Both the position numbers and the translations under genes were made by a program. Below are positions 31,820-53,700 of a stretch of 64,000 nucleotides of DNA, in pieces (within the stretch, counting starts at the first letter, position 1; the number at the start of each line of letters is the position of its first letter). Origin of the DNA: Acidobacteriota bacterium (lineage in GTDB: Bacteria > Acidobacteriota > UBA6911); NCBI GenBank assembly GCA_963664705.1, contig OY761556.1:6176001-6240000 (forward strand), read 5' to 3'. The notes beneath the pieces are model-generated. The model did no database searches, was not told the origin of the DNA, and was given only the letters and a program-made list of their open reading frames with translations.

Positions 31820-31870
31820 AGCCCTCCCCTATAATTTCAATGGAGTAAATCGTTTCTGCCATCACTCCGG

Positions 31871-32800: not shown

Positions 32801-32819
32801 CCTGTCCTCCCATGACCTT

Positions 32820-32864
32820 TTGAGCCTTCGAGGCTTGCCGGGTCCGGCTGCCTCAAAGGCTCAA
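32820..32864. repeat. Long imperfect intergenic hairpin
   Basis: TTGAGCCTTCGAGGC..GCCGG-gt-CCGGC.GCCTCAAAGGCTCAA; the 13-mer CTCAAAGGCTCAA recurs at 13334-13346. Confidence 0.65.
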
Positions 32865-32882
32865 TCCACTGCCTGCTCGTCC

Positions 32883-34712
32883 CTATTCCCAACCGTTCTT
32901 GATTCCGTATTTGGCAATATAGCCGATAGCCTCGATGTCGTATATCTTGCCATTCCGAATTTTGAAAATATGAGCGGCTGGAAGGTTGAACGCGCCATAG
33001 CTGTTCTTCCTCTCCGTGGTTCCGGGCACTCCTGTGATTTTCATTACTTTGGGGGACCCGTTGTGAACGAACATGGAAAAGGCAAAGACCAGTCCCTTTT
33101 CCTTGTCGACCGCGAATACGCGCCGACGATTGATATCGGTGATGTAGCTCATGACGCCCGTGCTTAGCTGATCGCTGCAGGTCATCTTCCGGAAAACGGA
33201 GAAGTCATCTTTCTTGGCCTCCTCCGGAGTCTGCGTCTGATCGTTTGCGGAAATGCCACCGTTTTCGCGCCGTTGGCATTCGGCGGCAAAGGGAGCTACT
33301 TTCCCGTTGTCCTGCACGATGGCCTCATAATACGAATTGGCAATCTTCTGCATCTGTTCGCGGGAAACCCGTTCTCCCTTCAGTTCCCGTTCCAGCAGCG
33401 ACGGTCGCACTTTGGACATGTTCGGGTTTAGCGGCTGGTCAGTCGGCGGAACAACCAGGTGGTCGATTTCGGTGATTTTCCCATTTTCCACCTTCAGTCG
33501 GACGCTCACAATGGTCGGCTTCTTTTCGGTTTCAATAACACCGATAAATCCGACCTGCCCCTGGTCCGGATCTGCGGCATACACTTTAAAACTGGTCGGC
33601 CCGCCCGTCGCAGTCTTCCATAACCCCTGTCCGATCGGCATCTTCCTCGTGTTCTCAACCAATTGGACGTTCTTTGCGAGGGGGAGTCCTGAAGCATCAT
33701 GCCGGGGCAATGCAGCAAGATAATTGTCCATCATGTCGACGAGGCCTTGCCGCGTGCTGTTCCAGCCATTGCTGGCCTGGTAGGGCACGCCGACGATTGC
33801 CATGGCCTCAATTTCGTAAATCTTGCCGTTCTTGATCTTGTAAATGTGGGCTGCCGGTACGGTGAACTGCCCCCATGTGTTGGGCCTTTCCGTGACTCCC
33901 TGCACCCCTTTAATCTTCATTGGATTCGGTTCGCCGTCATGATTGAACATGGAGAAGGCCATCACCAGACCCAGTTCCTCGTCCACGGCAAAAAGACGCC
34001 GTTGGTTGATGTCGGTGATGTAGCTCATGACGCCAGTGTCGAGCTGCGGTCCACACTTCATCCGGCCAAATGCCGCCGTGCTGCCCGGCGCAGGCTGGGC
34101 GTTCGCCGCCAGCGGATCCTGATTGTTTGCCGATGTAACGCCATTCTCGCGCCGCTGACATTCGTCGGCAAATGGTGCCGCGTTGCCATTGCTCTGCTCG
34201 ATCGCTTCATAATACCCGTCCGCCGCTTTCAGCATCTGTGCGCGGGAAACACGCTCGGAGACGGCGATCTTCTGGACGAGGCCTGCCCGCGGTTTCATAA
34301 GGCCTGCCGGCAAGGGCTCGTTCAGAGGCGACACCATGTGATCAATTTCCGTGATCCTGCCATTTACCAGTTTCAGCCGGGCACCCAGCATAACCGGCTT
34401 GTTTTTGTCCTGCATCACACCCATGAATCCGATTTGTCCTGCAACCGGATCGGCAACATAAATCTTGAATTCAGTGGGGCCGCCGGTTGCGGTCTCCCAA
34501 AACCCTTTGCCGACCTGGATCTGTTTCAGATTTTCCACAAGCTTCACGTCGGCTGCCATTGGCGCTCCCGCGGGGTTGTGCTTGACCAGCGCCGCGAGGT
34601 ATTGATCCATCAGGGCTACCATGCAGGCACGGTCGCATTTGCCCTCTGCCGAGGCAGTCCCAAGGAATCCCAGGATAATGACAATACTCAGAATCACCGT
34701 CTTCTTTCGCAT
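32883..34712 (-). CDS. Secreted protein of two tandem ~290-aa NTF2-like repeats
   Basis: Signal peptide; both halves contain YLAAL..H, G.G.W.TATGGPT.FK.Y.ADP, APFA.ECQRRENG, TGVMSYITDIN.RR.FAVD and PAAHI.KI.NGKIY.IEA. Confidence 0.75.
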   Translation of the reverse strand: MRKKTVILSIVIILGFLGTASAEGKCDRACMVALMDQYLAALVKHNPAGAPMAADVKLVENLKQIQVGKGFWETATGGPTEFKIYVADPVAGQIGFMGVMQDKNKPVMLGARLKLVNGRITEIDHMVSPLNEPLPAGLMKPRAGLVQKIAVSERVSRAQMLKAADGYYEAIEQSNGNAAPFADECQRRENGVTSANNQDPLAANAQPAPGSTAAFGRMKCGPQLDTGVMSYITDINQRRLFAVDEELGLVMAFSMFNHDGEPNPMKIKGVQGVTERPNTWGQFTVPAAHIYKIKNGKIYEIEAMAIVGVPYQASNGWNSTRQGLVDMMDNYLAALPRHDASGLPLAKNVQLVENTRKMPIGQGLWKTATGGPTSFKVYAADPDQGQVGFIGVIETEKKPTIVSVRLKVENGKITEIDHLVVPPTDQPLNPNMSKVRPSLLERELKGERVSREQMQKIANSYYEAIVQDNGKVAPFAAECQRRENGGISANDQTQTPEEAKKDDFSVFRKMTCSDQLSTGVMSYITDINRRRVFAVDKEKGLVFAFSMFVHNGSPKVMKITGVPGTTERKNSYGAFNLPAAHIFKIRNGKIYDIEAIGYIAKYGIKNGWE

Positions 34713-37473: not shown

Positions 37474-39225
37474 CTATTTCCATTCATCAATCAAGACTCC
37501 GCGACTGAAGCGGAAGTCCGTGACGAACCAGGTAGTCTGGATATTTCCTCCCGCCACCACGATCTGAATTGCTTTTGGATTGGTGAAGGGTTTGATCAAG
37601 GTTTCAGGCGGAGCCTTTTTCCAGCTGGCGTAGGGTTCCAGCCCCTGGAATGCCATGGGCATGGTTGCGGTGGTGTTGACGCCGTTCCCCCAGTAGGTTC
37701 CAGCCGCCACTTCAACATTCTTGGCCAGCCAATCGCTCATCTGCGATTTTGTTTTGAATCCATAGACATCTTTCAGCAGGCCGGCGACCGTCGGATCGAC
37801 GACCACGGTGGATGCCATTCCCGCCAGGGAGCGCATGTAATCCCTAATCAGCATGTGCGGCGGATGATTCCGCTGTGCTTCTCCTACGCTCGATATATAG
37901 CTCCAGCCCACTCCAATGCTGACCACGTTATCGGTGCGCCGGTAGCCCATTTCCACGCTGAGAGGCTCCCATCCCGCCGGCAGCAGTTCCTCGTTTTCCG
38001 CATAGCAGACATTGTTGTATTGCAGCGTGCTGCCAAGCGTTGAATAGGCGCCGGCATTCATGCGGAGATCCCCCAGCAGTTTGCCTGCGAGTGTGAAGGT
38101 CCTTCCGATAACAGAGTTGGCCTCATTGAATGGGCCCATGGCATCGATGCCCGCATTCATGCCCAGTTGTTTACGGATCGGTCCATTCACAACAATCATA
38201 TTTGCCATGGAGCTGGTGGAATTGCCGAACGAGTTTGCCTGGCTCAAAGTGGCGAGGATTGTCGGGAAATACTCCGGTTTGGCTCCGGCCATGGCCGCAC
38301 AAATCGCGGCCTTTTCCACCGTCAATTCCCTCGAGCCCGTTTTGCTCACCACTTCACCCGGCTTGCGGCTGGTCGCTTTCAGCAGCGCCGATACCCTTTC
38401 CTCGGTGGGAAGTTCGATGGCATTGAAGTCCGTCCATTCCTTGTCTTTGAACAGGCGCTTCAGATTGGCTTCGGTGTCCGGTTTTAAAAGTCTTGGCTCT
38501 ATCACGGCACCGGAAGGCATCCCCTTGATTTTCTCATTGTCGGTGAGCGGTTTGGTCAATCCGTCGACGATGGTCTGCATCATCGGCTTGCCGCTCAGGA
38601 GATCTTTTCCGTCGACGTAATTCTTGTGAACAGATTTCGGCTGGCCCGCCACGGGGAAGGGAAATGCGACGTACCGGATGGGCATGCCGTTTGAATACAG
38701 AAGTTCGTAATCTTTGAACTTCACTACGTTGATTCCGGAGGCTCCGACAGTCGGGATGCCGGCCAGTTCGAGATTCCGTGCAAATCGGCTCACGGCCGAT
38801 ACGCAGCCATGTCAGCCACCAATCCCGATGATGGCTCCACCCGCTTTCTTTTCGGTGATTTCCTTTCGCAACCCCTGGTCATCTCCGAACGGTCCGCCGC
38901 CGGACCGGCGTATTTCCGTCTTTACGGAAGGCATGTTTTTGGCAAACCACGCCTGCATTTCTTCGAAGACGCTGTAAGCAGCCTCCGGGCCTCCCCATTG
39001 CAGATCCACCATGTAGATGGTTTTCCCTTCAAGCGTGCCGGGACGTGAACAAAGAGGGACCCGCTCTGCCATCTTCGTTGCAATGGCAGGATTCATCACC
39101 GTAATCAGCTGCTCGCCCGGGGCTTTTCCCTTCTGGGGTTGCCCTGAGGCAACGGGCGTGGGGGCAATGACTATCAGGGCAATCGCTATGATCAGAAAAC
39201 TTCCAAACAGGATTTTTTCCTTCAT
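37474..39225 (-). CDS. UGSC-family selenoprotein (in-frame UGA at 38812-38814 read as Sec; 583 aa), N-terminal signal/anchor
   Basis: ORFs 38812-39225 and 37474-38793 are in the same frame: ...GIGG-TGA-HGCVSAVSRFARNLELAGIPTV gives UxxC. A SECIS-like hairpin follows, and there is no RBS before GTG 38793. Confidence 0.85.
38779..38805 (-). promoter_or_regulatory. Putative bacterial SECIS hairpin
   Basis: mRNA UGCGU-AUCGGC-CGUGA-GCCGAU-UUGCA; apical loop starts after 17 nt downstream of the UGA and has G at position 2. Confidence 0.7.
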
Positions 39226-39429
39226 CTCTTCCTCCCTTAAATAGCGGTAGGTATTTTGAACAGATTTTGATCAGCCTAAACCGAACCGCCTTGGCAATCC
39301 AGTCAAAATAGCTTCGAAACTTCGATGGTTTCCAGCCTCTTGCATAGCATCCCAATTTTGGGCAAAGTAGAGTGAATTACGTTTGCAGTTGTTGTTACTA
39401 TTTCTCATAACCGGCGTCAGGAGGTTCCA

Positions 39430-39699
39430 ATGTCGCTGCTGCCCAACGAAGTCGAGCTGATCAGAGTTCCGGGAGGCATTAATGCTGAGTCGATCGTCGC
39501 AGCGCTGCACGGACGGGGAATACCGGCCCGGACGCGCGGCGAAGCACTCGGTCCGATTTATGGCCTGACACTCGACGGACTTGGCGAAGTTACCATCTTT
39601 GTACCAGTGGAAAACCTTGACGAAGCCAAGTCTATCCTGGCCGCGGGAGAGCATGGCGACCTGTTGTTCGAAGAAAGCGATTCCACAGAAGAGATTTAG
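39430..39699 (+). CDS. DUF2007-like small PII-fold protein
   Basis: AESIVAALHGRGIP...V.IFVP.E....AK.IL; RBS AGGAGG. Confidence 0.75.
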   Translation: MSLLPNEVELIRVPGGINAESIVAALHGRGIPARTRGEALGPIYGLTLDGLGEVTIFVPVENLDEAKSILAAGEHGDLLFEESDSTEEI

Positions 39700-39758
39700 G
39701 TTTCGCAGGCTAATGGCAATAGCGTGCAGCATTAGGCGGGACGCCAGCGCTCCTGTGT

Positions 39759-39807
39759 CTGAAATCTGGAATCCGGAATCTGAAATCCGAAATCTGGAGT
39801 CTGAAAT
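39759..39807. repeat. Heptamer tandem array, 7 units (CTGRAAT)
   Basis: ctgaaat ctggaat ccggaat ctgaaat ccgaaat ctggagt ctgaaat between convergent genes. Confidence 0.85.
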
Positions 39808-40889
39808 CAAAACACCAGATACATTCCGTCGGCAATAATCCTTTTTTGTCCTGCCGCGTATACAGCCACCGCTTCCGCTACCTGAATCGGGTTGCCTTTG
39901 GCGTACACGATGTCCTGATGCACGACATTTTCCGGCTTAATAAATGAGCGCACACCAATGGCTCCACCAAGGTGGTCGGATCTCCCGTATGCCCAGTGAA
40001 AGCCGGCTTTTTCATCTTCCAGTACATTTCCGGTCACAATCGCATCGTCGTTGCATCCGAACGCCACTTCGGCAATGTTGGCGCGGATCGGGTCTATCGC
40101 GAAATAGTCGCGCAGGCGCTGACTTTGCTCAGCTTCCCCGGAGATTTCGACAATTCTGTTTCGTTCCACGCGAAGCACGACCAGTCCGCCATCGATGACA
40201 GCCGGCAGTTCGCCCGATGTCCGGGAATATTCGCCTGCCTTTTCGCCTTCGTAGGGAACGATGAATGTTTCTCCGGAGGGGAGGTTGATGATGCGGTCCC
40301 CTTTTTTGAAGCGTGGCAGGAACCCGTCGTCCACCTCGCATTTGCGAAACCGCAGATCGAATCGGCAGGAATGTCCTGTGGAAAAACGAACATCAAGGCT
40401 TTCGGCGCCTTCCAGCAGGTCCGCGAGAATGCCGCAGCGGCGGGCAACCTCCCGATAATCGGCCGCCAGGGCGCTTTTTTCCATGCGTCTTTCCAATCCC
40501 GGCATAGATGCGGCCCGGAAGTCTTCCTTCTTTCTGCAGAATCCATCGAGAGCGGCCGTCGCGGAGAATTCGGTGAGAAATGCGGCCAGGGTGCATTGGC
40601 CCAGAGCATCCTCGAGACGAACTTCCGCGCCGGATTGCATTCCCTTTGCCGGAAGATCCGCTCCGTTGGCGCCGGTTGCCGGATAGATGAGCAGCGGTTT
40701 GGTTGTAAACCCAAGCCTGCGGCCGAGAGATTCGAAGGCATCGCACCATTCCTGCGCCAGGGCCCGGCGGTCCTGCCATTGCGGATTATCTGCCACGGCG
40801 CCATGCGGAATATCACAAGCGACCAGTACTGTTTCCCCTGCCTGAGGGTCGAAGACGTTTACAAGAAGATCCTGCAGTTTGAATGCCAC
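39807..40889 (-). CDS. M29/aminopeptidase-T-like metallopeptidase
   Basis: NLPSGE, NIAEVAFGCN, LEDEK.GFHWAYG, HQD; GTG 40889 after GGAGG. Confidence 0.75.
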   Translation of the reverse strand: MAFKLQDLLVNVFDPQAGETVLVACDIPHGAVADNPQWQDRRALAQEWCDAFESLGRRLGFTTKPLLIYPATGANGADLPAKGMQSGAEVRLEDALGQCTLAAFLTEFSATAALDGFCRKKEDFRAASMPGLERRMEKSALAADYREVARRCGILADLLEGAESLDVRFSTGHSCRFDLRFRKCEVDDGFLPRFKKGDRIINLPSGETFIVPYEGEKAGEYSRTSGELPAVIDGGLVVLRVERNRIVEISGEAEQSQRLRDYFAIDPIRANIAEVAFGCNDDAIVTGNVLEDEKAGFHWAYGRSDHLGGAIGVRSFIKPENVVHQDIVYAKGNPIQVAEAVAVYAAGQKRIIADGMYLVF

Positions 40890-41038
40890 GGCGAGCCTCC
40901 CATTTTTGCTCTCGAGGCCGGAAGATTTCGGCATCGAGGCTCGTTGCTGTAGTTAGGATAGCACCGGGCAATCCTCTTTCGCCAAATTCGTGGCATAAGA
41001 AGCGGCGCAAAATTCGGGAATTTCAGCCAGCGCGATTC

Positions 41039-42244
41039 TCACCTGGCTGCGAATTCCAGCGCTATTCTTTTCCAGATTGTACGGATTCCGCGCAGCGGAA
41101 ATTCCCACCAGTGGTCAATACCCCAGATCCATTGCATATATCGGGGAAAACCCAGAAAGGCGGGCCGGAAGCGGCGGCGGAAGGCGGATCGTTTGTACAG
41201 GCCATAGCGAACCCGAAACAGGTCGCGCGTAGTCAGGTTGGAGACTCCTCGCGTACGGACCTTGATCCAGTCGCGCTCCATCGATGCAACCGGAAGGCTC
41301 CGGAGCTGCTTCAATACGAGACCGGGAATCGGGGCGTCGACCAGTTCATTCAGATAGGGAAGCATATATTGCAGGACAAGGGTGAGGTTTCTCTTGCGAG
41401 CCTGTGCCAGCAACCGGGCCCAGTCAAAGTCGGGAGTCGTGGCAATCACCGCGGAGGCATCCGCAACCCAGCGCATGGGGGCCACCGCATTCCATTCCAT
41501 TGCGTGGGAGCAGATGTGCAGCAATTGATCCGACGGCGACAAAGCGCGGGACTCTTCGCCACCGCAGATAATTGGAATCGATCCTTCCCACAGATCGACG
41601 TCAGCCTCAGGTCCCAGGCACTCCTGAAATACGTGCCAATGAAGATCCAGCTTGATATCCGTTTCTTCCCGGGCCAGGTTGCAGGCTTTTACCGCGAGCA
41701 GGTATTCCGGAGTGATTTTCTGCGGGCAATCTTTCTCGGGCTTCCATCCTGATTGGATTAAACGCTGAAGTGCCTCAATGGCCTTATTCGTGGGAATCAG
41801 CACGTCGATATCTGCCATTGGCCTCAAGCCGAGGTCTCTGTAATAAAGATGTGCCAGGGCTGCTCCTTTGAGAATCAAGGTGGGGATTCCCATTTCGTGG
41901 AAGGAGCGGAGGACCGCGGAAAGTCGGTGCAGCGCCAGTTGATTCTGATACCAGGCCCTGCGATAGATTCCTTTGAACCGACCAAGCAGATCGGTTTCCA
42001 CTCCGATGCTTTTCAGGTTGCGATAGAGCAGCGGGATCAGCCTGAAGGAACCGTAATCGAGATGATCTATATCCGCCAGGGATCGCCATTTTTCCCAGGC
42101 TTCGATCCCGTGTGGCACAGGCAGGAGAGCTGCGCGCAGCATCCATTGCTGTTCAGGCGTCGGCCATGCGTAGCCGGATTCTCCGTCAATGGCGAAAGGC
42201 GGCGCGCATATCTCAAATGGACGGTTCATTTTTTTTATCTTCAT
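41039..42244 (-). CDS. Nucleotidyltransferase (NTP_transf_5-like)
   Basis: LILKGAALA..YY...LRPMADIDVLI, DLHW, LLHICSH, RWVAD. Confidence 0.85.
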   Translation of the reverse strand: MKIKKMNRPFEICAPPFAIDGESGYAWPTPEQQWMLRAALLPVPHGIEAWEKWRSLADIDHLDYGSFRLIPLLYRNLKSIGVETDLLGRFKGIYRRAWYQNQLALHRLSAVLRSFHEMGIPTLILKGAALAHLYYRDLGLRPMADIDVLIPTNKAIEALQRLIQSGWKPEKDCPQKITPEYLLAVKACNLAREETDIKLDLHWHVFQECLGPEADVDLWEGSIPIICGGEESRALSPSDQLLHICSHAMEWNAVAPMRWVADASAVIATTPDFDWARLLAQARKRNLTLVLQYMLPYLNELVDAPIPGLVLKQLRSLPVASMERDWIKVRTRGVSNLTTRDLFRVRYGLYKRSAFRRRFRPAFLGFPRYMQWIWGIDHWWEFPLRGIRTIWKRIALEFAAR

Positions 42245-42944
42245 TGAAGCGTTGGACGGCTGCCTGCCGACGCCGGTCCAAAGCTGTTTTTACAATGCGT
42301 ACAAAGTCGACCTGCGAAGAACGTTCGACAATTGTCGTGTTGCGTCCATGTACGCGACGCCGATAGACGATTTCCGGCAACATTTGAGCCTGGAGTCCCG
42401 CTTCCATCGATTTGGCAAACCAATCGACAAAATCCCCCACTCGCCAGGTGTCGTCAAAAAGCCCCACTTTGAAAAACGCTTCGCGCCGGATCAGCATGGC
42501 GCTCTTCATATATGCAGGCTGGGGTTTATCCGGGATCAATAGCCGGCCGGCAACCTCCATCGGCATGTCCGGACTCCGAAAAAAGAGGCTGTGCCCAAAG
42601 ACCATATCAATGCCGGGCCGAGACTGTAGAATTGCTGCCTGCTTTTGCAGTTTGTCGGGTTGCCAGATGTCGTCGGCATCAAGGAATGCAAGATAGTTGC
42701 CCTGCGATAACTGGATGCCCCGGTTTTGCGTTGCCGAAATGCCCCTGTGAGGCTGGCAGTCGCAATAAATGGAGCGGCCGAAGGAACCTGCCACCGCTGC
42801 CGTATCATCGGTAGATCCGTCATCCACGACAATCACCTCAAAGGGCGGCAGAGACTGCTGTAGAACACTGTTTATCGCCTCTGACAGGTAGTCGGCAGTA
42901 TTGTAGGCTGGAATGATGACGCTGATCCGCATATCGTCAGGCAT
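42213..42944 (-). CDS. GT2 glycosyltransferase
   Basis: SVIIPAYN, VVDDGSTD, FLDADD. Confidence 0.9.
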   Translation of the reverse strand: MPDDMRISVIIPAYNTADYLSEAINSVLQQSLPPFEVIVVDDGSTDDTAAVAGSFGRSIYCDCQPHRGISATQNRGIQLSQGNYLAFLDADDIWQPDKLQKQAAILQSRPGIDMVFGHSLFFRSPDMPMEVAGRLLIPDKPQPAYMKSAMLIRREAFFKVGLFDDTWRVGDFVDWFAKSMEAGLQAQMLPEIVYRRRVHGRNTTIVERSSQVDFVRIVKTALDRRRQAAVQRFNEDKKNEPSI

Positions 42945-44025
42945 CGGCGAGACTCCCGTGCTGGTTTGGCGATGAGAGGAACGGTTCGCTCAAGATCCGG
43001 CGAATAGTGGCCGGAATCTGGACGAGATCGGTGCCGACGGCAATTTCAAAGCTGGGCACGCGCCGGACCACCGCTGCCAGTCTTTGAAATGCTTCCGCTC
43101 CCGCACCAGCCAGTTGAAAAATTGTGCTTGGCGCCAGGGCCCGCAGGGCCTGGGCCGGCGGGATTGGGTTCAGTCGCGTTTCGCGGGTTCCGGCTACGCG
43201 GGGCAGCAGGATGGCGCGCAGGGGGAAGCCGGCGGACAGCCGTCCCGGATACAGCCGGTGCAGCAAATACAATGTCTTTTCAGCGGGAGTTGCTTCCGGA
43301 CGATGGATGGCCTCTGCCAGCGCGGGTAGCCGATTCCGGCCGTCCGCCGCAAGCTTCGCCGAACAATAAAGGCCGTGGATGTATGCCGGATCAGTCGAGA
43401 GTGCACAGTAGTCATCGGAGACGAAATCGAGACCACCCGTCAGACATGCCAGGGCAGTCGTCGATTTTCCGGAGCCGCCTCTTCCCACCAGAAGGACTCC
43501 GCCATCCCTCGACCCCACAGCTCCGGCATGCACCAGTTGACACCCGCGGGATGCAAGCCACCAGTGCATGACCGGCAGCAGCGGTGCTCCCATTTCGTAA
43601 TAGGGGATGTCGGAAGCCTGGCGAGTCCAGAATACTGCGCGTCGTGTTTCAGCGTCATACATGACCAGGGATCCGGAATCCCCGTTGTAGACAATCTTGA
43701 TCCGGCTTCCGATATGCACTTCGTTTCGTACCGATTCCGTCCACTTCCATGGCGGCGCCGGCAAGGCAACGCCCGTGGATTGGGTGTCCCACAGAAAAAT
43801 GTGACAATCGGCGGACGTGTCTCGTGTTTCCAGATGGTCGAATGCCGGCGCAAGGCAGAATGTCAATGCCGTCCCCGCGAAATCGAGGCGGAATGAATAC
43901 GGACCGGTGCCATAGTATTTCGTACTCCTGGCGGAGACGGCTACCGCTCGTTCAAAACAGGCCAGCGCTTCAGAGAAGTATTCCGGGAGTACGGATTCAT
44001 CGATCGCCTGATTCGATGTTTGCAT
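42937..44025 (-). CDS. HPr-kinase-related kinase
   Basis: VHAGAV, Walker A GRGGSGKST, VSDD. Confidence 0.82.
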   Translation of the reverse strand: MQTSNQAIDESVLPEYFSEALACFERAVAVSARSTKYYGTGPYSFRLDFAGTALTFCLAPAFDHLETRDTSADCHIFLWDTQSTGVALPAPPWKWTESVRNEVHIGSRIKIVYNGDSGSLVMYDAETRRAVFWTRQASDIPYYEMGAPLLPVMHWWLASRGCQLVHAGAVGSRDGGVLLVGRGGSGKSTTALACLTGGLDFVSDDYCALSTDPAYIHGLYCSAKLAADGRNRLPALAEAIHRPEATPAEKTLYLLHRLYPGRLSAGFPLRAILLPRVAGTRETRLNPIPPAQALRALAPSTIFQLAGAGAEAFQRLAAVVRRVPSFEIAVGTDLVQIPATIRRILSEPFLSSPNQHGSLADA

Positions 44026-44034
44026 AACCCCCCG

Positions 44035-44508
44035 TCAGGACTGCTTGGGGTTCGAGTCCGACCCTGCAGCGGAGTTCGGGATGTTGGGCCAGCCGGTTTC
44101 ATCCACTTCGTGAATCGGGTCCACCAGCAAAAGCTCCTGCATGTCCGTATATTTATTCAATACCGGAGCGGTAAACACCCTGCGTGGCTGATGCTCCGAA
44201 TTTCCGGAAGCTTTTTCCTCCGCAGAGACCGCAGGGTCCGGCACGATCAGGTTCTCGGCAATGATGCGTTGAATGAATTCCGCAACCGCCGTTTCAATAT
44301 CCTTCGCGGAGCCGTCGTAGATGCGGGACAGATGTAATAAAATTTCGCCTGCTGTGAATCCACTCTCCAGCATTGACCAGATTTCCGCGCCCAGCGTGTC
44401 AATGCTGTAATAGTTGCCGCTGGCGAGGTTGACGATAACAATCTCATCGTCAAAATTTTCCAGGATGACATCGGGCTTGTTGGTTCGATATCGGTCACTC
44501 TCGTTCAT
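44035..44508 (-). CDS. PqqD/RRE-family protein with a C-terminal leader/core-like extension
   Basis: Three strands (ENFDDEIVIVNLASGNYYSI) and three helices (GAEIWSML...FIQRIIAENLI), linker, then FTAPVLNKYTDMQELLLVDPIHEVDETGWP; ATG 44508 after GGAGG. Confidence 0.85.
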   Translation of the reverse strand: MNESDRYRTNKPDVILENFDDEIVIVNLASGNYYSIDTLGAEIWSMLESGFTAGEILLHLSRIYDGSAKDIETAVAEFIQRIIAENLIVPDPAVSAEEKASGNSEHQPRRVFTAPVLNKYTDMQELLLVDPIHEVDETGWPNIPNSAAGSDSNPKQS

Positions 44509-44745
44509 TAGCCGAAACCCTCCGGGGCTGAATTGTCTCACAGTCCGGATAGGAAATGAGATTATTTTAATAATCACCGAAAGCCGGGAGCTCTGCTGTC
44601 CCGGCTAATGCTGCAGGTGATTTGCCCAGTGAACCTGGAATAGCAGTGAACATCAGCCCTCCGTGCCTGGCGCTTCACTCGGGTCGCCGGACTCAGAACA
44701 AATAGTATGTGGTGTTGGCCGGGACGGCGGCACTCCCGGTGGAGA

Positions 44746-45453
44746 TCAAGTCTTCTCTGTCTGCTGCTTTCTGTGTATTGATGCCCGGATCAGGCGGAAC
44801 ATATCATTCCACAGTGCAAGCGCCTGGTTGGAGTCATTCTTTGCGTGCAGTCTTCGATAGAGCAGAACGTCCCGTAAAACCATCCTTTGAATGCCCAGAT
44901 CCTGCGCTCGAAAGAACCAGTCCGAGTCATTTCCGACCTTGTACGAGGGATCAAAAAGGCCGACCGTACTCAAGGTTGTACGGCGAACCATGAGCGCACT
45001 GGGCAAAAAGGAGGGTGCCGGCTGATGCAGCAGTTCCGGCTTAAGACCGGCCGGAATCGGCGTTCCGCTTTCAAGAATCATCTTCATGTACGAAACCACA
45101 TAGCCGACCTGTGGATTAGTTCGCAAATAGTGGGCCTGGAGACTAAGTTTACCGGGGGCCCACCAGTCGTCTGCATCGAGGAATGCGAGAAACTCGCCGC
45201 GTGACTGTTCTATGCCTGCATTTTTTGCTGCGCCATGCCCCTGGTTGACCTGGTGAAAATAGCGCACGCCGGGCCATTTCCGGGCGATTCGGGCGGTGGA
45301 ATCTGTGGAGCCATCATCCATGACGATGACTTCTATCGGGCGATAATCCTGTTCAAAGACGCTGGCCAGCGCATTGGGGAGAAAATCCTCTCCGTTGTAT
45401 ACGGGAATAATGATGCTGACCAGGTCTCTTTCGTACTCTGCCGTAATCATCAA
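44746..45453 (-). CDS. GT2 glycosyltransferase
   Basis: SIIIPVYN, DDGSTD, FLDADD, DSDW. Confidence 0.9.
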   Translation of the reverse strand: MMITAEYERDLVSIIIPVYNGEDFLPNALASVFEQDYRPIEVIVMDDGSTDSTARIARKWPGVRYFHQVNQGHGAAKNAGIEQSRGEFLAFLDADDWWAPGKLSLQAHYLRTNPQVGYVVSYMKMILESGTPIPAGLKPELLHQPAPSFLPSALMVRRTTLSTVGLFDPSYKVGNDSDWFFRAQDLGIQRMVLRDVLLYRRLHAKNDSNQALALWNDMFRLIRASIHRKQQTEKT

Positions 45454-46250
45454 TGCTTTAGCCTCTCGGGTTCTGCATCGACCGTTTCACAAGCCTCCAG
45501 GCGAGGCAGGGACGAGGCCGCCCCCCCGCCGGCGGCTCTCCGCCTGTCGAGCGACTGCTTCAGCATTTGCACAAGGAAGTGATTGTCCACCTTGCGGTTA
45601 TTCGTCAGATTTCCTTCATGACGACGATAATGCAGCACCAAACCGCGATGGATGTGGATATGGGTTCCGAGTTCGCGGGCGCGCATGAACCAGTCCCAGT
45701 CATCGCAATGCAATAGTTGCGTATTTAGCGGCCCCAATTGGCGAAACAGGGATTTTCGGATCAGGGTGCTCCCATTGCCCATAATCAGCTGCGGGCTCGC
45801 TGGCAACTGGAAAGGCAAATGGTCCGGATCCATCCCCGGATCGGGCCATAGAAGCGCATATCCCATGACCACCTGGATTGTGGGATCTTCTTTAACCGGG
45901 GCCAGTTGCAGCTCGATGGAATTTTCGGGCCAGACGTCATCGGCATCCAGCAGGCTTATCCATTCCGAGGTGGCTTTCGCAATGCCTGAATTGCGTGCTG
46001 CCGGAGCACCCTGGCGTTCCTGCCGGTAATATTGGACTGACGAGCCGAATTGCATGGCGATCCGCGGCGTGCTGTCGGTGGATCCATCATCGACGATGAT
46101 GATTTCGCGCGGACGAATCGTTTGGCGAAGAGCGCTGGAAATCGCCTCGTGCAGGTACTTCTCCCCGTTGTATACCGGGATGATCACGCTAACGGATTCA
46201 TCGGGCTTGGCATCGGATGGTTTCATGGCTCTCTGTTGTTGCCGGGTCAT
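45450..46250 (-). CDS. GT2 glycosyltransferase
   Basis: SVIIPVYN, DDGSTD, LLDADD, DWDW; start uncertain (46250 or 46226). Confidence 0.88.
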   Translation of the reverse strand: MTRQQQRAMKPSDAKPDESVSVIIPVYNGEKYLHEAISSALRQTIRPREIIIVDDGSTDSTPRIAMQFGSSVQYYRQERQGAPAARNSGIAKATSEWISLLDADDVWPENSIELQLAPVKEDPTIQVVMGYALLWPDPGMDPDHLPFQLPASPQLIMGNGSTLIRKSLFRQLGPLNTQLLHCDDWDWFMRARELGTHIHIHRGLVLHYRRHEGNLTNNRKVDNHFLVQMLKQSLDRRRAAGGGAASSLPRLEACETVDAEPERLKH

Positions 46251-46715
46251 AAGCCTGCAAACCCGCAGCCTGGAGATTTTACAACGAAGGCGCACGAAAA
46301 AATCGGCAAATCCGTGGCAGACTTGCGGTTCCTTTTCGCTCCTGATTTCACGGATTGTGGGGAGATTCTAAGGGCAGGAAACAACCCCGGGTTGCCGGTG
46401 CGTTCAGGTTGCCTAAAAATGTAACGATTTTTGGTGAGATATGCTAGATTATGCGGTCGAGGAAGAAAGCGAATAATTCGTGTTGCCCGGAAATACGGGA
46501 GCGCTCCCGCGGCTGATTCGGCAGTTCTGTCAGATCCGCGAGGAGGACGATGACGCGTACCTCAAAAGCCCTTATCATCGCACAATGAGTGATGATTGAT
46601 TCGCGATACTGAACCGTTCGTGATCAGTATTGGACGTTCTATATTGCAGATGTGGGGGGCACATCAGCGAACCGGTTTGCCGAGCTGTGTTGGGAAAACT
46701 TGGAGAGGACCTCTG

Positions 46716-47747
46716 ATGACTTATTATCTTGCGACCAAAGAAAGCATCGTCAATTGGATTAAGGGATTGTCTTCCGACAACCGGACCTACTTCCCGCAAA
46801 GGCACGGGGAAAAGAGCTACCGGTTTGCCCAAGTCCAATCCAATTCCGATATACAGTTTGAGCAATACACTCCAACTGTTGTGCCTCCGGTAAAATTTCT
46901 TGTCCCGGCAAGGGACGAGCTCCTGCAGTTCAAGAAAGGTGCGGACGGCAAAAGCGAGGTGAATGCCTCATTGGATACCTCCTTCCGGATTCTGGCAGGC
47001 GTACGGCCCTGCGATCTCAAGGGGATCCAGCTCATGGACCTCTTCTTCAAAGACGGCGTGCCTGATGCGTATTACCTCGCCCGTCGGGAGAATACGGCCA
47101 TCATCGGATACTCATGCTCGGCCGCCTGCGACGAGCGCGCATTCTGCGGAGCGGTTGAATCGCTCGACTACAGCGAAGGCGCGGATGTCTTTGTTACTTC
47201 CCAGGCGGGCGGCGACCTCCTGGTGGAAGTGAAAACGGATCTTGGGAAAAAGCTGGCCTCCGGGGCGGGATGGAAAGCGTGCGACAGCGCGCCGGCTCCA
47301 AAGAAGAACGCCCAGCCGTTCGGCCGCACATTTGCTGCGAGCGTGCCCGAGATTACCGGCATTATCGATAAAAACACGAACAGCCCGATTTGGGAAAAGC
47401 ATGTGACCCGCTGTTTCTCCTGCGGTACCTGCAACCTGGTTTGCCCCACGTGCTATTGCTTCGACGTCGCCGACGATCTGAACTTGGACGTAACAACAGG
47501 GAATCGCACAAGAACCTGGGACGGCTGTATGCTTCCGTCATTTGCCGTGGTAACCGGAGGGCATAATTTCCGTCCGGAAGCCGCCGCGCGGCAGCGTCAC
47601 CGAGTCAGCCGCAAGTTCGATTATTTGACCAAGAAATATGGACGCGGCTCGGTTTGCGTGGGATGCGGGCGGTGTGGCCGCCAGTGCACGTCCCACATAG
47701 ACATTTACGATATCGTGTCAGACCTGATCAAAGAAGGAGGCCGATAA
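46716..47747 (+). CDS. hydB: Group 3b [NiFe] hydrogenase beta (Fe-S) subunit
   Basis: GVRPCD, CFSCGTCNLVCPTCYCF, CVGCGRCGRQC. Confidence 0.88.
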   Translation: MTYYLATKESIVNWIKGLSSDNRTYFPQRHGEKSYRFAQVQSNSDIQFEQYTPTVVPPVKFLVPARDELLQFKKGADGKSEVNASLDTSFRILAGVRPCDLKGIQLMDLFFKDGVPDAYYLARRENTAIIGYSCSAACDERAFCGAVESLDYSEGADVFVTSQAGGDLLVEVKTDLGKKLASGAGWKACDSAPAPKKNAQPFGRTFAASVPEITGIIDKNTNSPIWEKHVTRCFSCGTCNLVCPTCYCFDVADDLNLDVTTGNRTRTWDGCMLPSFAVVTGGHNFRPEAAARQRHRVSRKFDYLTKKYGRGSVCVGCGRCGRQCTSHIDIYDIVSDLIKEGGR

Positions 47748-48595
47748 TGAGTACCGTTGCATCCTCATATGCGGAACTAGCCAAGGACAGTTTCCTGCCG
47801 CAGCGGGGCAAGATCGTCGAAATCATCGACATGACCGCAAAAGACAGGTATTTCCGCCTTGAGCTGGAAAAGCCGCTGGGCCACCGTCCGGGTCAGTTTG
47901 TCATGGTTTCAATCCTGGGAGTCGGCGAAGCTCCGATATCCGTCAGTTGCGGGCCCCGAAACGATAACGTGCTGGAAATGGTGATCCGCCGCCTGGGTCG
48001 GCTGACCGAGGTGATTCATGCGCTGAAAGTAGGGGACGAGATGGGAATTCGCGGCCCCTTCGGTTCCGGATTCGATCTCAACGACTTCTACGGAAAAGAT
48101 GTCCTGTTCGTTGCCGGCGGCCTCGGTCTGGTGCCGCTTCGATCCCTGATCACGCCCGTCGTGGCTGAAGCCAAGCGTTGCGGTACGATTACCCTGATTT
48201 CCGGATGCCGGAATCCCGCGGAAGAACTCTATCGGGATCAGCTCAAGGCATGGACGGATGCCGGCGTCAACGTGATCCGGCTCGTGGATGGCACTGAAAA
48301 CATGCCGTGGGAGTTTGGCGTAGGCCTTGTTACGGAACCGATTCCGAAACTGAAACTTGATCCGAAAAATACCGTTGCCGCCCTGTGCGGGCCGCCTGTC
48401 ATGTACAAATTCGTCATTGCCGCGCTGTTGAGCAAGAACCTGCCTCAGGATTGCATCTTCGTCGATCTTGAACGGCGTATGAAATGCGGCGTTGGCAAAT
48501 GTGGGCACTGCCAGATCAACCATGTATATTGCTGTCAGGAGGGACCGGTCTTTCGGTTTTCCAGTCTGGCAGGATTGCCGGAGGCGCTTCGATGA
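47747..48595 (+). CDS. hydG: Group 3b hydrogenase gamma (FAD/NAD(P), 2Fe-2S) subunit
   Basis: PGQF, GEAPIS, RGPFG, AGGLGLVPLR, CGPPVM, ERRMKCGVGKCGHC..C. Confidence 0.9.
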   Translation: MSTVASSYAELAKDSFLPQRGKIVEIIDMTAKDRYFRLELEKPLGHRPGQFVMVSILGVGEAPISVSCGPRNDNVLEMVIRRLGRLTEVIHALKVGDEMGIRGPFGSGFDLNDFYGKDVLFVAGGLGLVPLRSLITPVVAEAKRCGTITLISGCRNPAEELYRDQLKAWTDAGVNVIRLVDGTENMPWEFGVGLVTEPIPKLKLDPKNTVAALCGPPVMYKFVIAALLSKNLPQDCIFVDLERRMKCGVGKCGHCQINHVYCCQEGPVFRFSSLAGLPEALR

Positions 48596-49368
48596 AACCC
48601 AAGGTAGCATTTTTCGATTTCGCCAGTTGCGAAGGATGCCAGCTGGCCATTCTGAATTGCGAGGAGATCCTCCTCGACATACTCGGCCTCATTGACCTGG
48701 TGGAATTCCGCGAGGCTATCTCTGAAACCGCACCGAAGTACGACATCGCCTTCGTGGAAGGAAGTATTCATCGCGACGAGGATATCGAAAGAATCCAGAA
48801 TCTGCGGTCCCGAACCCGCTACCTTGTAGCGCTGGGCGCGTGCGCGTGCAATGGAAATGTGCAGGCGCGCTCCAATTTTGTGGCTCCCGCCGTGAATTAC
48901 GAAGCGATCTACGGCGAAAAAGCCCGCAACCTGGTTCAGGTCGATCCGGACTACTGGCAGTTGTGGGCCCATACCCGTGTGCGGCCGCTGGACAAGATCG
49001 TCAAAGTGGATGCATATCTGCGCGGCTGCCCCGTGGTGCCGGAGGAATTTCTCCACCTCGTGAAATCGCTCCTTCAGGGAACCATGCCGACAGTGACCGC
49101 GAATGCGGTTTGCGTGGATTGCAAGAAGAACGAGAACGAGTGCGTGTATGAACGGGGCAAAACCTGCATGGGACCCGTGACATGGGGCGGTTGCAACAGC
49201 ATCTGCGTCAATCAGGGATATGTCTGCGACGGCTGTCGCGGATCTCTCCCACACGCCAATGTGGAAGCCCATATCGCACTGATGCGGGAACACAACATCG
49301 ACGACAAAGATATCCGAAGCCGATACCGGCTTTTCCTGGGTGCCGAACCTATTGGTAGGGGAGTCTGA
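48592..49368 (+). CDS. hydD: Group 3b hydrogenase delta (small) subunit
   Basis: SCEGCQ, VEGS, LGACA, GCP, VCVDC, CMGPVT.GGC, CDGCRG. Confidence 0.9.
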   Translation: MKPKVAFFDFASCEGCQLAILNCEEILLDILGLIDLVEFREAISETAPKYDIAFVEGSIHRDEDIERIQNLRSRTRYLVALGACACNGNVQARSNFVAPAVNYEAIYGEKARNLVQVDPDYWQLWAHTRVRPLDKIVKVDAYLRGCPVVPEEFLHLVKSLLQGTMPTVTANAVCVDCKKNENECVYERGKTCMGPVTWGGCNSICVNQGYVCDGCRGSLPHANVEAHIALMREHNIDDKDIRSRYRLFLGAEPIGRGV

Positions 49369-49371
49369 AAA

Positions 49372-50676
49372 ATGGATTTGAAAGCCAAAACATATACGAT
49401 TGATGTCAAGCACGTTACCCGTGTCGAGGGGCATGGACGCATTGTAGTCAATACAAAGGAAGGCGCCGTCCAGGAAGTGAAGCTTGTAATCACTGAAGCC
49501 AACCGCTTCTTCGAGAACTTCGTAAAGGGGATGCAGCCGGCGGAGGTGCCCTGGATCGTCAGCCGGATCTGCGGCATTTGCTGCGTGGGTCATCAGTTGA
49601 CCGCGACAAAGGCCGTGGAAGCCGCCCTGGGCATTCAGATCAGCCCGCAGACCGCCCTGCTTCGCAAACTTCTCACGGAGTCCCAGTTTCTGCAGAGCCA
49701 TGTACTGCATGTTTACTTCCTGGCTGTCCCGGACTTCCTGGGCGTGAAAAGCGTTCTGCCGCTGGCAAAGACGCACCCGGAGGTCGTGACGCGTGCGCTC
49801 CGGCTCAAAAAGCTGGCCAATGACTATACAACCATGTTTGGCGGACGCACGCTGCATCCGATGGCCAACACGCTCAAAGGTTTCCGCAAGCTCCCGGACC
49901 TGGACGCGGTTGCCGCCCTCAGGAAACGGCTGCTGGACGCGATTCCGGATATCGAGGAAACCGTGCGTGTCGCCAAGACTCTCCAGATTCCTCCATATGA
50001 ACGCGAAACCGAATACGTATCATTGAAGCATCCGGATGAATATGCGCTGTACGATGGCGACATCTACAGTTCCGACACGAAGTCTGCGGTGCCGGTGGAC
50101 AAATACCGGGAAGTCACCAACGAATTCACGGTCGCGCATTCGACCACCAAGTGGTCAAAATGGCATCGGGATTCCTATTTTGCCGGTGCGCTGGCTCGTG
50201 TGAATAACAACTTCGACCAGTTGATGCCCCAGGCCCAGCAGGTCGCCCATGATCTCGGATTGAAAGTGCCTTCCTACAATCCGTACATGAACAATGTGGC
50301 CCAGGTTGTGGAAGTTGTGCACTGCGCCTACAACAGCGTCCGCATGTTGGACGAACTGCTGGGCGGCGGGATCAAGCAGGAAGATATTTCCTTCCCGGTC
50401 AAAGCCGGCCGCGGCGTGGGTTCCTGCGAAGTTCCACGCGGGATCCTGTTCCACGAATATGCCTTTGACGCGGATGGCCGTTGCATCGATGCCAACGCCA
50501 TCATTCCGACAAGCCAGAATATCAACAATGTCGAGCAGGATATGAAGGCGTTTGTGCCTCAGATGCTGCCGAGCATGTCCAAAGAGGAGCTCACGCTTCA
50601 CATGGAGATGCTGCTGCGGGCGTACGATCCGTGCATTTCCTGCTCGGTTCACATGCTGGATGTTGATTTTGTCTGA
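49372..50676 (+). CDS. hydA: Group 3b [NiFe] hydrogenase large (alpha) subunit
   Basis: TRVEGHG, L1 RICGIC, EVPRG, L2 YDPCISCSVH plus a short cleavable tail. Confidence 0.95.
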   Translation: MDLKAKTYTIDVKHVTRVEGHGRIVVNTKEGAVQEVKLVITEANRFFENFVKGMQPAEVPWIVSRICGICCVGHQLTATKAVEAALGIQISPQTALLRKLLTESQFLQSHVLHVYFLAVPDFLGVKSVLPLAKTHPEVVTRALRLKKLANDYTTMFGGRTLHPMANTLKGFRKLPDLDAVAALRKRLLDAIPDIEETVRVAKTLQIPPYERETEYVSLKHPDEYALYDGDIYSSDTKSAVPVDKYREVTNEFTVAHSTTKWSKWHRDSYFAGALARVNNNFDQLMPQAQQVAHDLGLKVPSYNPYMNNVAQVVEVVHCAYNSVRMLDELLGGGIKQEDISFPVKAGRGVGSCEVPRGILFHEYAFDADGRCIDANAIIPTSQNINNVEQDMKAFVPQMLPSMSKEELTLHMEMLLRAYDPCISCSVHMLDVDFV

Positions 50677-51163
50677 ACCTGCGACGCCGACTGCCATGTT
50701 GGAGTGGCAGATCGTGGGGATCGGGACCCGTCTTAATAGCGACGACGAGATTGGTCTTGCGCTGGTCCGCGCTCTAACGGAAGAAGCGGAGTGGGCGGAA
50801 AAGTGCGTTCTGTGGGAAGGCGCCGACGCTGCGACGGTTACCTCGTCCCTGCTGGAATGGAGCCGCGCGACTGTCCTGGTGGATGCTGCCGATATGCGTC
50901 TTGCGCCGGGCGAGTACCGATTCTTTCCTGACCGGGATGCTTCCGTCACGCTGAAAGACAGTTCGGTTTCTACTCATGGCCTGGGTTTGCCGGAAGGATT
51001 GCAGTTGGCCAGGAGTCTTGGGTTCGACCAGCCGATCTACGTTTTTGCAGTTCAGCCATTTGACCTTTCTCCAAGACAGGGAATGACATCAGAAATGACC
51101 GCCCTGTTTCCTGCGCTGCTTTCGGCCTTGAGAGCAGCCTGTGTTCGGGTGTCGCAGGGATAG
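50660..51163 (+). CDS. Hydrogenase maturation protease
   Basis: GIGT.L.SDDEIG, LVDAA, STHG; start uncertain (50660, 50669 or 50696). Confidence 0.85.
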   Translation: MLILSEPATPTAMLEWQIVGIGTRLNSDDEIGLALVRALTEEAEWAEKCVLWEGADAATVTSSLLEWSRATVLVDAADMRLAPGEYRFFPDRDASVTLKDSSVSTHGLGLPEGLQLARSLGFDQPIYVFAVQPFDLSPRQGMTSEMTALFPALLSALRAACVRVSQG

Positions 51164-53140: not shown

Positions 53141-53298
53141 GTTCTGAAACCGTCTTGGTTTGTGTCATTGAGGCAGTTTGAGGCTGTCGTTCATTTATGC
53201 GGCGAATTGCCTCAATGATGCGAACGCTTGCGCGCCGCCCGGGATTTCCCTCGACAAAAACCTCGCAGATAATCCGAAATAGGATACAATTCGTTTCC

Positions 53299-53700
53299 AT
53301 GCAGACGAATGAACATGTATTGGAATTCCGCGTTTACATGGAAGATACCGATGCGCAAGGCATCGTGTACTATGCCAATTACCTCCGCTTTTTCGAGCGG
53401 GGACGCAGCGAAATGATCGAATCGCTCGGAATACCCATGACAACGGCAATCGACCCGGATTGCAGGCTGGTGATCTACGAAGCCCGCGTGAAGTTCCGGA
53501 GGCCGGCTTTTCTTGGGGACCGGATCCAGGTGGTGACCTCGATGCTGCGCTCCTCGGAATACCGGGTCACCTTCCGGCAGCAGGTGAAGCGACTCGGAGA
53601 AGAGGATGCGCTGGTCAGCGGGGAAATTGATCTCGTTGCCATCGACCAGACCGGAGCCCTCAAGGAGCTGCCCGCATTTTTTCAACCCGAAAAGAAATAG
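53299..53700 (+). CDS. YbgC/FadM-family acyl-CoA thioesterase
   Basis: RVYMEDTDAQGIVYYANYLRFFERGRSE. Confidence 0.9.
   Translation: MQTNEHVLEFRVYMEDTDAQGIVYYANYLRFFERGRSEMIESLGIPMTTAIDPDCRLVIYEARVKFRRPAFLGDRIQVVTSMLRSSEYRVTFRQQVKRLGEEDALVSGEIDLVAIDQTGALKELPAFFQPEKK

What the first reader, a model, noticed from the sequence alone, without database searches (positions are those of the whole stretch)
41039..46250. RRE + HprK-like kinase + nucleotidyltransferase + three GT2s with no cyclase: candidate new RiPP or glyco-modification system
Seen: six co-oriented genes, most overlapping or nearly abutting: GT2, GT2, PqqD/RRE, kinase, GT2, NTP_transf_5-like. Known: RREs bind RiPP leaders; HprK-like kinases and such nucleotidyltransferases tailor lasso peptides (paeninodin, pseudomycoidin); PqqD/HprK-related/nucleotidyltransferase trios of unknown function are noted in TIGRFAMs. 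There is no asparagine-synthetase-like cyclase, B2 peptidase, radical SAM or YcaO in the window. Inference: a phosphorylation, nucleotidylation and glycosylation cascade acting on a peptide or protein, or an RRE-regulated surface-glycan pathway.
Basis: partly seen in the sequence, partly recalled or inferred. Interest (0 to 1): 0.78.

Follow-up and report, generated by a model that had tools for sequence, protein, structure and literature searches.

The report
Self-leadered protein carrier for phosphate-linked sugars
Six neighbouring genes form a cassette found across many bacterial groups, in which a small peptide-binding protein carries its own docking motif and a highly conserved tail that a kinase, a nucleotidyltransferase and three sugar transferases likely build a phosphate-linked sugar chain on; no paper I could find describes it, and the chemistry is untested.

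Summary
The six genes are real, intact and co-oriented. No lasso peptidase or YcaO exists in this 98%-complete genome, so the cassette is not a lasso accessory. The 157-aa RRE protein ends in a tail with a lasso-type RRE-binding motif (F112-x-x-P115-x-L117, modelled as a bound strand), followed by a core (D122-P141) far more conserved than the domain (71% vs 29% identity in kinase-seeded loci). All 19 other loci found through this kinase clade carry the tailed RRE. Natural RRE-kinase fusions exist. The GT2s form three paralogous clades, and the GT set varies while the tail stays fixed. The tail has no invariant Ser/Thr; its near-invariant Asp130 sits at the register of the phosphorylated Ser of LPP precursors. 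Best reading (0.5): the tail is an in-cis acceptor, phosphorylated, sugar-capped by the nucleotidyltransferase and extended by the GT2s. Main rival (0.3): an unmodified scaffold for a small-molecule or surface-glycan pathway. No docking of the tail on the kinase was shown. The closest known system is LPP/pseudomycoidin K+N tailoring. This scan reported what reads as the same cassette on other DNA (e1-3823956, e1-946655); I found no paper on it.

The parts
45450..46250 (-). GT2 glycosyltransferase, cassette clade a (soluble, single domain; frame open from GTG 46295)
   Evidence: PF00535 E 8.5e-34; DADD-x-W motif and no hydrophobic segment; groups with clade a
44746..45453 (-). GT2 glycosyltransferase, cassette clade b
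   Evidence: PF00535 E 3.9e-36; clade b
44035..44508 (-). 157-aa RRE (PqqD) protein with fused leader-like motif and conserved tail; proposed in-cis acceptor or carrier
   Evidence: PF05402; closest solved structure is the lasso RRE TbiB1; tail conservation
44239..44496 (-). RRE domain, residues 5-90
   Evidence: [quoted passage not shown]
44149..44175 (-). Leader-like RRE-binding segment F112-x-x-P115-x-L117 to Y120, predicted to fill the protein's own RRE cleft
   Evidence: F/Y 114, P 117 and L/F/I 126 of 132 tails; residues 111-120 pLDDT 95 with strand 117-120; repeated after each RRE in tandem proteins
44086..44145 (-). Conserved flexible core D122-P141, with D130-P131-x-H133 and a closing G-W-P; proposed modification site
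   Evidence: 71% mean identity vs 29% for the domain in 17 kinase-seeded loci; pLDDT 45-66; no invariant Ser/Thr
42937..44025 (-). HprK/PEPCK-fold kinase of a cassette-specific clade
   Evidence: H166-G181-G184-G186-K187-S188-D204-D205 has the spacing of the BsfK motif; score gap of at least 205 vs at most 75 bits; fold of a fused homolog closest to ATP-dependent PEPCK
42213..42944 (-). GT2 glycosyltransferase, cassette clade c
   Evidence: PF00535 E 3.9e-31; clade c
41039..42244 (-). PF14907 (PsmN/LppN-like) nucleotidyltransferase-fold enzyme
   Evidence: PF14907 E 1e-43; G127, R141, D145 and D262 invariant and D147 at least 90% in 25 homologs

Best explanation
The cassette likely builds a phosphate-linked oligosaccharide on the tail of its own RRE protein: the tail's leader-like motif is predicted to occupy the RRE cleft in cis, the kinase would phosphorylate the presented core, the PF14907 enzyme would cap that phosphate with a sugar, and the three GT2s would extend the chain. 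Shown: the gene set, its co-inheritance, the tail and its conservation, intact catalytic motifs, natural RRE-kinase fusions, and the absence of cyclase, leader peptidase, separate precursor and lipid-initiating transferase from the cassette. Predicted: the cis-bound strand. Inferred: every chemical step, and the acceptor residue. The best candidate is Asp130, then His133; a variable Thr121 or Tyr120 is possible. In many relatives an MsbA-like ABC exporter would ship the product. This genome lacks that exporter, so here the product would stay inside or use another route.
For: (1) The tail is tied to the system independently of how loci were found: 7 of 7 kinase-seeded metagenome loci, 12 of 12 other strong-kinase genomes, and 113 of the top 150 hits of a domain-only profile. 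It is absent from 17 of 17 loci of weaker HprK-like kinases (1.5-kb flanks only). (2) The motif matches the [Y/W]xxPx[L/V/I/A/F/Y] RRE-binding consensus (PMC13381572) and is modelled as a strand at pLDDT 95. (3) In tandem-RRE proteins each RRE has its own F/YxxP-type segment but only one keeps the D-P-x-H...GWP core, so the core is a separate functional unit; five proteins fuse three RREs to the kinase. (4) D130 lies 18 residues after F112, the distance from Y-16 to phospho-Ser3 in LppA; in BsfA it is 19. (5) Precedent: PsmK phosphorylates and PsmN is needed for hexoses on the phosphate; RREs accelerate such kinases. (6) The tail is fixed while the GT set varies (1-5 GT2s, GT4, GT-D, sulfotransferase, SDR), which is the logic of a carrier. 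(7) Phosphoglycosyl-transferase-like hits occur in only 2 of 95 loci, and WecA, Wzc and Wza hits in none. (8) Tree distances correlate: RRE-kinase Mantel r 0.64 (69 loci), NT-kinase 0.63 (46 loci).
Against: No Ser/Thr is invariant: T121 in 75 of 132 tails, and 8 of 132 have no Ser/Thr from residue 118 to the end, whereas the characterised kinases in the papers I read modify Ser (BsfK also an engineered Thr). Asp or His acceptance has no precedent that I found. In the model of a natural fusion the core stayed at pLDDT below 50, so no docking on the kinase was seen. The kinase fold is closest to PEP carboxykinase, a small-molecule enzyme. A related-fold nucleotidyltransferase, FzmU, uses a kinase-activated small molecule and did not need its RRE (PMC13622209). 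LppN was inactive in a heterologous host. A carrier used once per protein is costly, and no release enzyme or peptidase is conserved (M29 neighbour in 1 of 85 loci). Correlated trees can come from shared ancestry alone.
Confidence: 0.5

Rival explanations
1. The RRE protein is an unmodified adaptor. Its self-bound leader keeps the RRE in the enzyme-activating state and the conserved tail docks one of the enzymes. The kinase and the PF14907 enzyme activate a small molecule (sugar, polyol or acid), and the GTs make a glycoside, glycolipid or surface glycan.
For: No invariant hydroxyl residue in the tail. The core is rich in hydrophobic residues, as docking motifs are (inference). PEPCK-like kinase fold. 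FzmFKU precedent of kinase plus nucleotidyltransferase activating a small molecule. Some loci sit among surface-glycan genes (L060, L109). The exporter is generic MsbA/HepA-like and below every specific NCBIfam cut-off listed.
Against: The near-invariant Asp sits at the register of known phosphoacceptors. The core persists in fusions where the kinase is already tethered, so it is not just a kinase tether. No acyltransferase, lipid initiator or sugar-nucleotide gene recurs in the loci.
Confidence: 0.3
2. An ordinary RiPP in trans: a separate short precursor displaces the fused leader mimic and is phosphorylated and glycosylated like LPP or pseudomycoidin.
For: Same enzyme families as LPP (RRE, HprK-like kinase, NTP transferase, MsbA-like exporter). 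Very short precursors can escape annotation (FzmZ, 22 aa).
Against: In 39500-46800 no ORF of 15-100 aa outside annotated genes on the coding strand has a convincing [YFW]xxPx[LIVF] motif other than the tail. No small conserved family appeared among ORFs of 60 aa or more in 67 loci; shorter ORFs in relatives were not clustered. No SpI-like peptidase lies at the cassette in this genome or, where positions could be compared, in 30 others.
Confidence: 0.12
3. A detached tailoring module for a lasso peptide whose cyclase and peptidase lie elsewhere in the genome.
For: The RRE is closest to lasso B1 proteins. 31 of 62 cassette genomes have some B2-like match. In Oscillatoria sp. PCC 10802 a B2 gene lies about 10 kb away.
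Against: No B2 in this 98%-complete single-contig genome, nor in 7 of 11 near-complete relatives. The tail lacks Thr(-2) and Gly1 in lasso register (L127, V129). The Oscillatoria lasso locus has its own untailed RRE on the other strand. Asparagine-synthetase-like hits occur in 2 of 48 long loci.
Confidence: 0.03

Closest known systems
LPP (linear polyphosphorylated peptide) clusters of Bacillota, Popov et al. 2026, PMC13381572 (read parts 1-3 of 12 and passages)
   Same: RRE + HprK-like kinase + uncharacterised NTP transferase + MsbA-like exporter, no cyclase, near polysaccharide genes; YxxP-type leader; modified residue 18 positions after the aromatic residue.
   Different: LPP has a separate precursor with a variable core, an SpI peptidase and Ser3 as acceptor. 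Here leader and core are fused behind the RRE, the core is nearly invariant and has no fixed Ser/Thr, there is no peptidase, and a dedicated three-clade GT2 family is part of the unit.
Pseudomycoidin PsmK/PsmN (PMC6993621, passages) and Bradymonas BsfK/BsfB1/BsfN (PMC10368454, passages)
   Same: Kinase catalytic motif spacing identical to BsfK; PF14907-type enzyme with a DxD pair; phosphorylation followed by sugar on the phosphate; RRE-stimulated kinase.
   Different: Those tailor lasso peptides (cyclase, B2, Ser acceptor). None of these is present here.
Fosfazinomycin FzmT/FzmU with kinases FzmF/FzmK (preprint PMC13622209, part 1 of 6 and passages)
   Same: RRE next to a nucleotidyltransferase; kinases plus nucleotidyltransferase build a non-peptide product on a peptide scaffold.
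   Different: Separate 22-aa precursor, asparagine-synthetase-like enzyme and phosphonate chemistry; no GTs. Whether FzmU is PF14907 was not established.
TIGRFAM HprK_rel_A and HprK_rel_B systems (TIGR04352, TIGR04355)
   Same: HprK-related kinase beside PF14907 and PqqD-like genes; this genome appears to hold such a kinase/NT pair in an exopolysaccharide locus near 3.72 Mb (family assignment by eye).
   Different: The window's kinase scores 43 and 36 bits against cut-offs of 200 and belongs to a separate group.
Borosins (enzyme fused to its own core peptide) and acyl/peptidyl carrier proteins (both recalled, not tested)
   Same: Substrate carried in cis; invariant attachment motif with variable downstream enzymes.
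   Different: No sequence or fold relation; analogy of logic only.

Membership tests
Lasso peptide BGC | Macrolactam cyclase (asparagine-synthetase-like) in the cluster | tested here: not met
   None of 8 PF00733 matches in the window; hits in 2 of 48 long related loci
Lasso peptide BGC | B2 leader peptidase (PF13471) | tested here: not met
   0 in own genome; no match in 31 of 62 cassette genomes
Lasso peptide BGC | B1-type RRE and YxxPxL leader motif | tested here: met
   TbiB1 best match by sequence and fold; F112-x-x-P115-x-L117, but fused
Lasso peptide BGC | Thr(-2) and Gly/Cys/Ser at core position 1 | tested here: not met
   In register these are L127 and V129 (L in most homologs)
LPP | RRE + HprK-like kinase + NTP transferase without cyclase | tested here: met
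LPP | SpI/SipW-like leader peptidase in the cluster | tested here: not met
   TIGR02228: no match in the window; none at the cassette where positions could be compared among 30 genomes
LPP | Separate precursor with YxxPxVLxHQxIxFETxxS leader and variable core | tested here: not met
   No such ORF; tail is fused and conserved
LPP | MsbA-like exporter | tested here: inconclusive
   A cassette-specific ABC family is present in many relatives (ABC hits in 27 of 48 long loci, some generic) but has no ortholog in this genome (best 178 bits)
LPP | (Poly)phosphorylation of Ser3 | not testable with these tools
   The position in register is Asp130; chemistry needs MS
HprK_rel_A / HprK_rel_B systems | Kinase above the TIGR04352 or TIGR04355 cut-off | tested here: not met
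   42.8 and 35.5 bits vs 200
RiPP (general) | Modified core released from a leader by proteolysis | tested here: inconclusive
   No conserved peptidase; the core is internal in five kinase fusions; a housekeeping protease cannot be excluded
Undecaprenyl-linked surface glycan locus | Initiating phosphoglycosyl transferase plus Wzx/Wzy or Wzc/Wza | tested here: not met
   BLAST with single homologs: PGT hits in 2 of 95 loci, WecA/Wzc/Wza in 0; such genes could act from elsewhere in the genome

The most novel reading that the evidence does not exclude
A protein-primed route to oligosaccharides. A reusable 'glycosyl carrier protein' is phosphorylated on an invariant Asp (an acyl-phosphate) or His by a PEPCK-fold kinase. 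A PF14907 enzyme loads the first sugar, replacing undecaprenyl phosphate and its initiating transferase. A modular set of GT2/GT4/sulfotransferases elongates the chain before release or export. This would be a new carrier chemistry and a new linkage, evolved from RiPP leader-recognition parts and spread over many phyla.
Probability: 0.22. Interest if true: 0.9.

Novelty: new variant of a known kind. Interest (0 to 1): 0.7.

Why it matters
PF14907 enzymes and most HprK-like kinases have no defined reaction, and the partner that LppN seems to lack is an open question in the LPP paper. This cassette is compact, soluble, apparently self-contained and carries a candidate substrate in cis, so six genes in E. 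coli plus intact mass spectrometry could settle what the kinase/nucleotidyltransferase pair does and whether RRE systems build glycans. It is patchy but broad: 13 of 301 genomes sampled in this phylum, 10 of 201 in the cyanobacterial phylum, and loci from Chloroflexota, Actinomycetota, Nitrospirota, Bacillota, Proteobacteria and others. A small protein tag that receives a defined glycan would also be useful for glycoengineering.

Tried and rejected
The AlphaFold2 model of a natural three-RRE/kinase fusion (P0128, 68-row alignment; 24 kinase rows dropped because they misaligned) left the core unresolved. The M29 aminopeptidase downstream (39807-40934) is rejected as the dedicated peptidase: it is beside the cassette in 1 of 85 loci, a close relative. 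The second PqqD (1,393,306) belongs to a separate radical-SAM cluster with its own short precursor candidate. Promoter and terminator scans were at chance level, and repeats gave only GT2 paralogy and chance pairs. No RNA holder was listed. A search for longer tail-bearing proteins found nothing, a weak negative since one search did find them. The PF14907 profile has no meaningful PDB sequence match, and the exporter profile did not separate peptide from lipid or glycan exporters. The Atlas returned only PqqD-named clusters. My recollection that RRE-Finder or burhizin papers describe an RRE-precursor fusion with this gene set was not borne out. The first conservation table was biased because two of six seeds came from the tail; it was redone with kinase-seeded and domain-only sets. 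The D130 count is partly by construction (the pattern anchors on it): 132 of 134 scored tails fit, one has Asn there and one looks frameshifted. A resemblance of D-P-x-H to self-cleaving Asp-Pro motifs is recalled only and was not tested.
Full report
Observation. The six genes are present on the minus strand as described: GT2a 45450-46250, GT2b 44746-45453, RRE 44035-44508, kinase 42937-44025, GT2c 42213-42944 and PF14907 41039-42244. They are flanked by a divergent hydrogenase operon and an M29 peptidase gene. Catalytic motifs are intact. The kinase has H166-G181-G184-G186-K187-S188-D204-D205, the same spacing as the motif given for the lasso kinase BsfK. The PF14907 protein has G127, R141, D145-x-D147 and D262, and each GT2 has DADD-x-W. 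None has a membrane segment. The genome (98% complete, one contig) has no B2 peptidase and no YcaO, and no asparagine synthetase or radical SAM gene falls in the window.

The cassette is a conserved unit. The RRE protein retrieved 67 loci from genomes of many phyla and 838 proteins. Among 48 loci of 12 kb or more (RRE- and kinase-seeded pooled, some from close relatives), 46 have the kinase, 46 a cassette-type GT2, 40 the PF14907 enzyme, 27 an ABC exporter hit and 15 a GT4; 2 have an asparagine-synthetase-like hit. Gene order varies but the families stay together. A kinase profile separates 13 of 301 genomes of this phylum at 205 bits or more from the rest at 75 or less, and these kinases form one group in a tree, with weak support (0.57). 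Tree distances of RRE and kinase, and of PF14907 and kinase, correlate (Mantel r 0.64 and 0.63), which shared ancestry could also give. The GT2s fall mostly into three paralogous groups, with one window gene in each and one of each in a natural triple fusion (L004); local supports are 0.75-0.90. The cassette is accessory: full-length matches in 2 of 24 sampled genomes of the same genus and 10 of 201 in the cyanobacterial phylum.

The overlooked part is the RRE protein's tail. Residues 5-90 are a lasso-B1-like RRE (TbiB1: E 9e-19 by profile; TM 0.85). After a variable linker comes F112-x-x-P115-x-L117, which fits the consensus for leaders bound by discrete lasso RREs (PMC13381572). AlphaFold2 gives residues 111-120 pLDDT 95 with a strand at 117-120. 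I infer that this fills the leader cleft; I could not inspect coordinates. Then follows a core, D122-P141, of low pLDDT. Because the first search was seeded partly from the tail, I retested without that bias. The tail is present in 7 of 7 kinase-seeded metagenome loci, in 12 of 12 other strong-kinase genomes, and in 113 of the best 150 hits of a profile of the domain alone. Of the 37 without it, 24 end within 40 residues of the domain, and several of the other 13 look frameshifted. It is in 0 of 17 loci of weaker HprK-like kinases, 7 of which have an untailed RRE within 1.5 kb. In 17 kinase-seeded loci mean identity is 29% for the domain, 62% for the tail and 71% for the core.

Fusions inform the mechanism. 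The domain-only search returned proteins with two or three RRE copies. Each copy is followed by its own F/YxxP-type segment but only one retains the core, and five proteins fuse three RREs to the kinase with the core internal. A model of one fusion shows a strand after each RRE (118-120, 271-273, 406-409) but leaves the core at pLDDT below 50, so docking on the kinase is not shown. So the leader-like strand belongs to each domain, the core is a single separate element, and modification at a free C-terminal Ser, as in pseudomycoidin, does not fit these forms.

Acceptor. In 132 aligned tails D130 (the anchor; 132 of 134 scored tails fit), P131 (128) and H133 (126) are the most fixed. T121 is in 75, Y120 in 92, and 8 tails have no Ser/Thr from residue 118 to the end. 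A minor variant keeps D-P but loses the His and GWP. D130 is 18 residues after F112; in LppA the phosphorylated Ser3 is 18 after Y-16, and in BsfA Ser3 is 19 after Y-17. This register makes Asp130 the best candidate, but it is inference from spacing, and an Asp acceptor has no precedent in the papers I read.

Mechanism. By analogy with pseudomycoidin, where PsmN is required for one or two hexoses on the phosphate placed by PsmK, I propose phosphorylation of the core, sugar capping by the PF14907 enzyme, and extension by GT2a/b/c. The pattern is the reverse of most RiPPs: the peptide is fixed and the enzymes vary (extra GT2, GT4, GT-D, sulfotransferase, SDR). No lipid-initiating transferase belongs to the unit (hits in 2 of 95 loci, by BLAST with single homologs). 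That favours a carrier on which a glycan is built. Against it stand the lack of a fixed hydroxyl, the PEPCK-like kinase fold, the FzmFKU case in which kinases and a nucleotidyltransferase activate a small molecule without needing the RRE, and no conserved release step. I give 0.5 to the in-cis acceptor, 0.3 to an unmodified adaptor, 0.12 to a missed precursor in trans and 0.03 to a lasso accessory. The cassette's ABC family has no ortholog in this genome, so export is not obligatory.

Comparison and novelty. It works like the RRE/kinase/NTP-transferase module of LPP and paeninodin-type clusters but fails membership of both: no cyclase, no B2 (31 of 62 cassette genomes lack any match), no SpI peptidase and no separate precursor. 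Ten literature searches, including the tail motif as text and family accession numbers, found no description. The library lacks most subscription papers and I read no supplements, where an RRE network table may list this group. What I saw: PMC7470986 (passages and part 6 of 9), PMC12710340 (passages), PMC6993621 (passages), PMC10368454 (passages), PMC13381572 (parts 1-3 of 12 and passages), PMC13622209 (part 1 of 6 and passages), 10.1101/2020.11.25.399105 (passages); the rest only as listings. Earlier notes of this scan report what reads as the same cassette on other DNA. They are not independent support: I had the fused-tail reading before seeing them, and they pointed me to LPP as the closest system and supplied the 'acceptor tail' wording. 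New here relative to the lines I saw are the unbiased tail tests, the tandem and kinase fusions, the Asp register and the genome-level lasso test.

Verdict. Real, widespread, uncharacterised and directly testable; a new variant of a known kind, with about a one-in-five chance of being a new carrier chemistry. Interest 0.7.

Noticed in passing
G000:C1:1,387,770-1,395,179 (outside the window): A second RRE cluster: ABC transporter, phosphatase-like gene, S24/S26-like peptidase, kinase-like gene, radical SAM, PqqD, a short ORF with a YxxPxI leader-like motif and a Cys-containing end, and a divergent PF14907 gene. It resembles a SynChlorMet-type RiPP cassette (label recalled).
   Followed up: partly
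G000:C1:3,721,778-3,723,754 (outside the window): An HprK-related kinase and PF14907 pair inside an exopolysaccharide locus, with no PqqD match nearby.
   Followed up: partly
P0126, P0130, P0137, P0140; L086/L115; L143:9509-9949: A variant tail subfamily keeps D-M-x-x-L-L-x-x-D-P but replaces the His/GWP end with a Pro-rich end; where loci were seen it goes with several GT4s, and G506 carries both cassette types.
   Followed up: partly
window 39758-39808: Three copies of an imperfect 14-nt-period repeat overlapping the end of the M29 gene; similar copies at 39271-39330 region and 33699-33760 region by translation pattern, and on several other contigs of the same run: probably a genome-wide intergenic repeat.
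   Followed up: no
window 53212-54315: Two near-identical ORF-length segments (53212-53928 and 53998-54315 translate to almost the same N-terminal sequence), suggesting a local duplication or repeat element.
   Followed up: no
window 29655-34712 and 37474-39225: Several secreted-looking proteins without Pfam match at E 1e-6, including a 609-aa protein made of two similar halves.
   Followed up: no
window 46596-51163: NiFe hydrogenase/sulfhydrogenase-type operon divergent from the cassette; no sign that it is linked to the cassette in relatives.
   Followed up: partly
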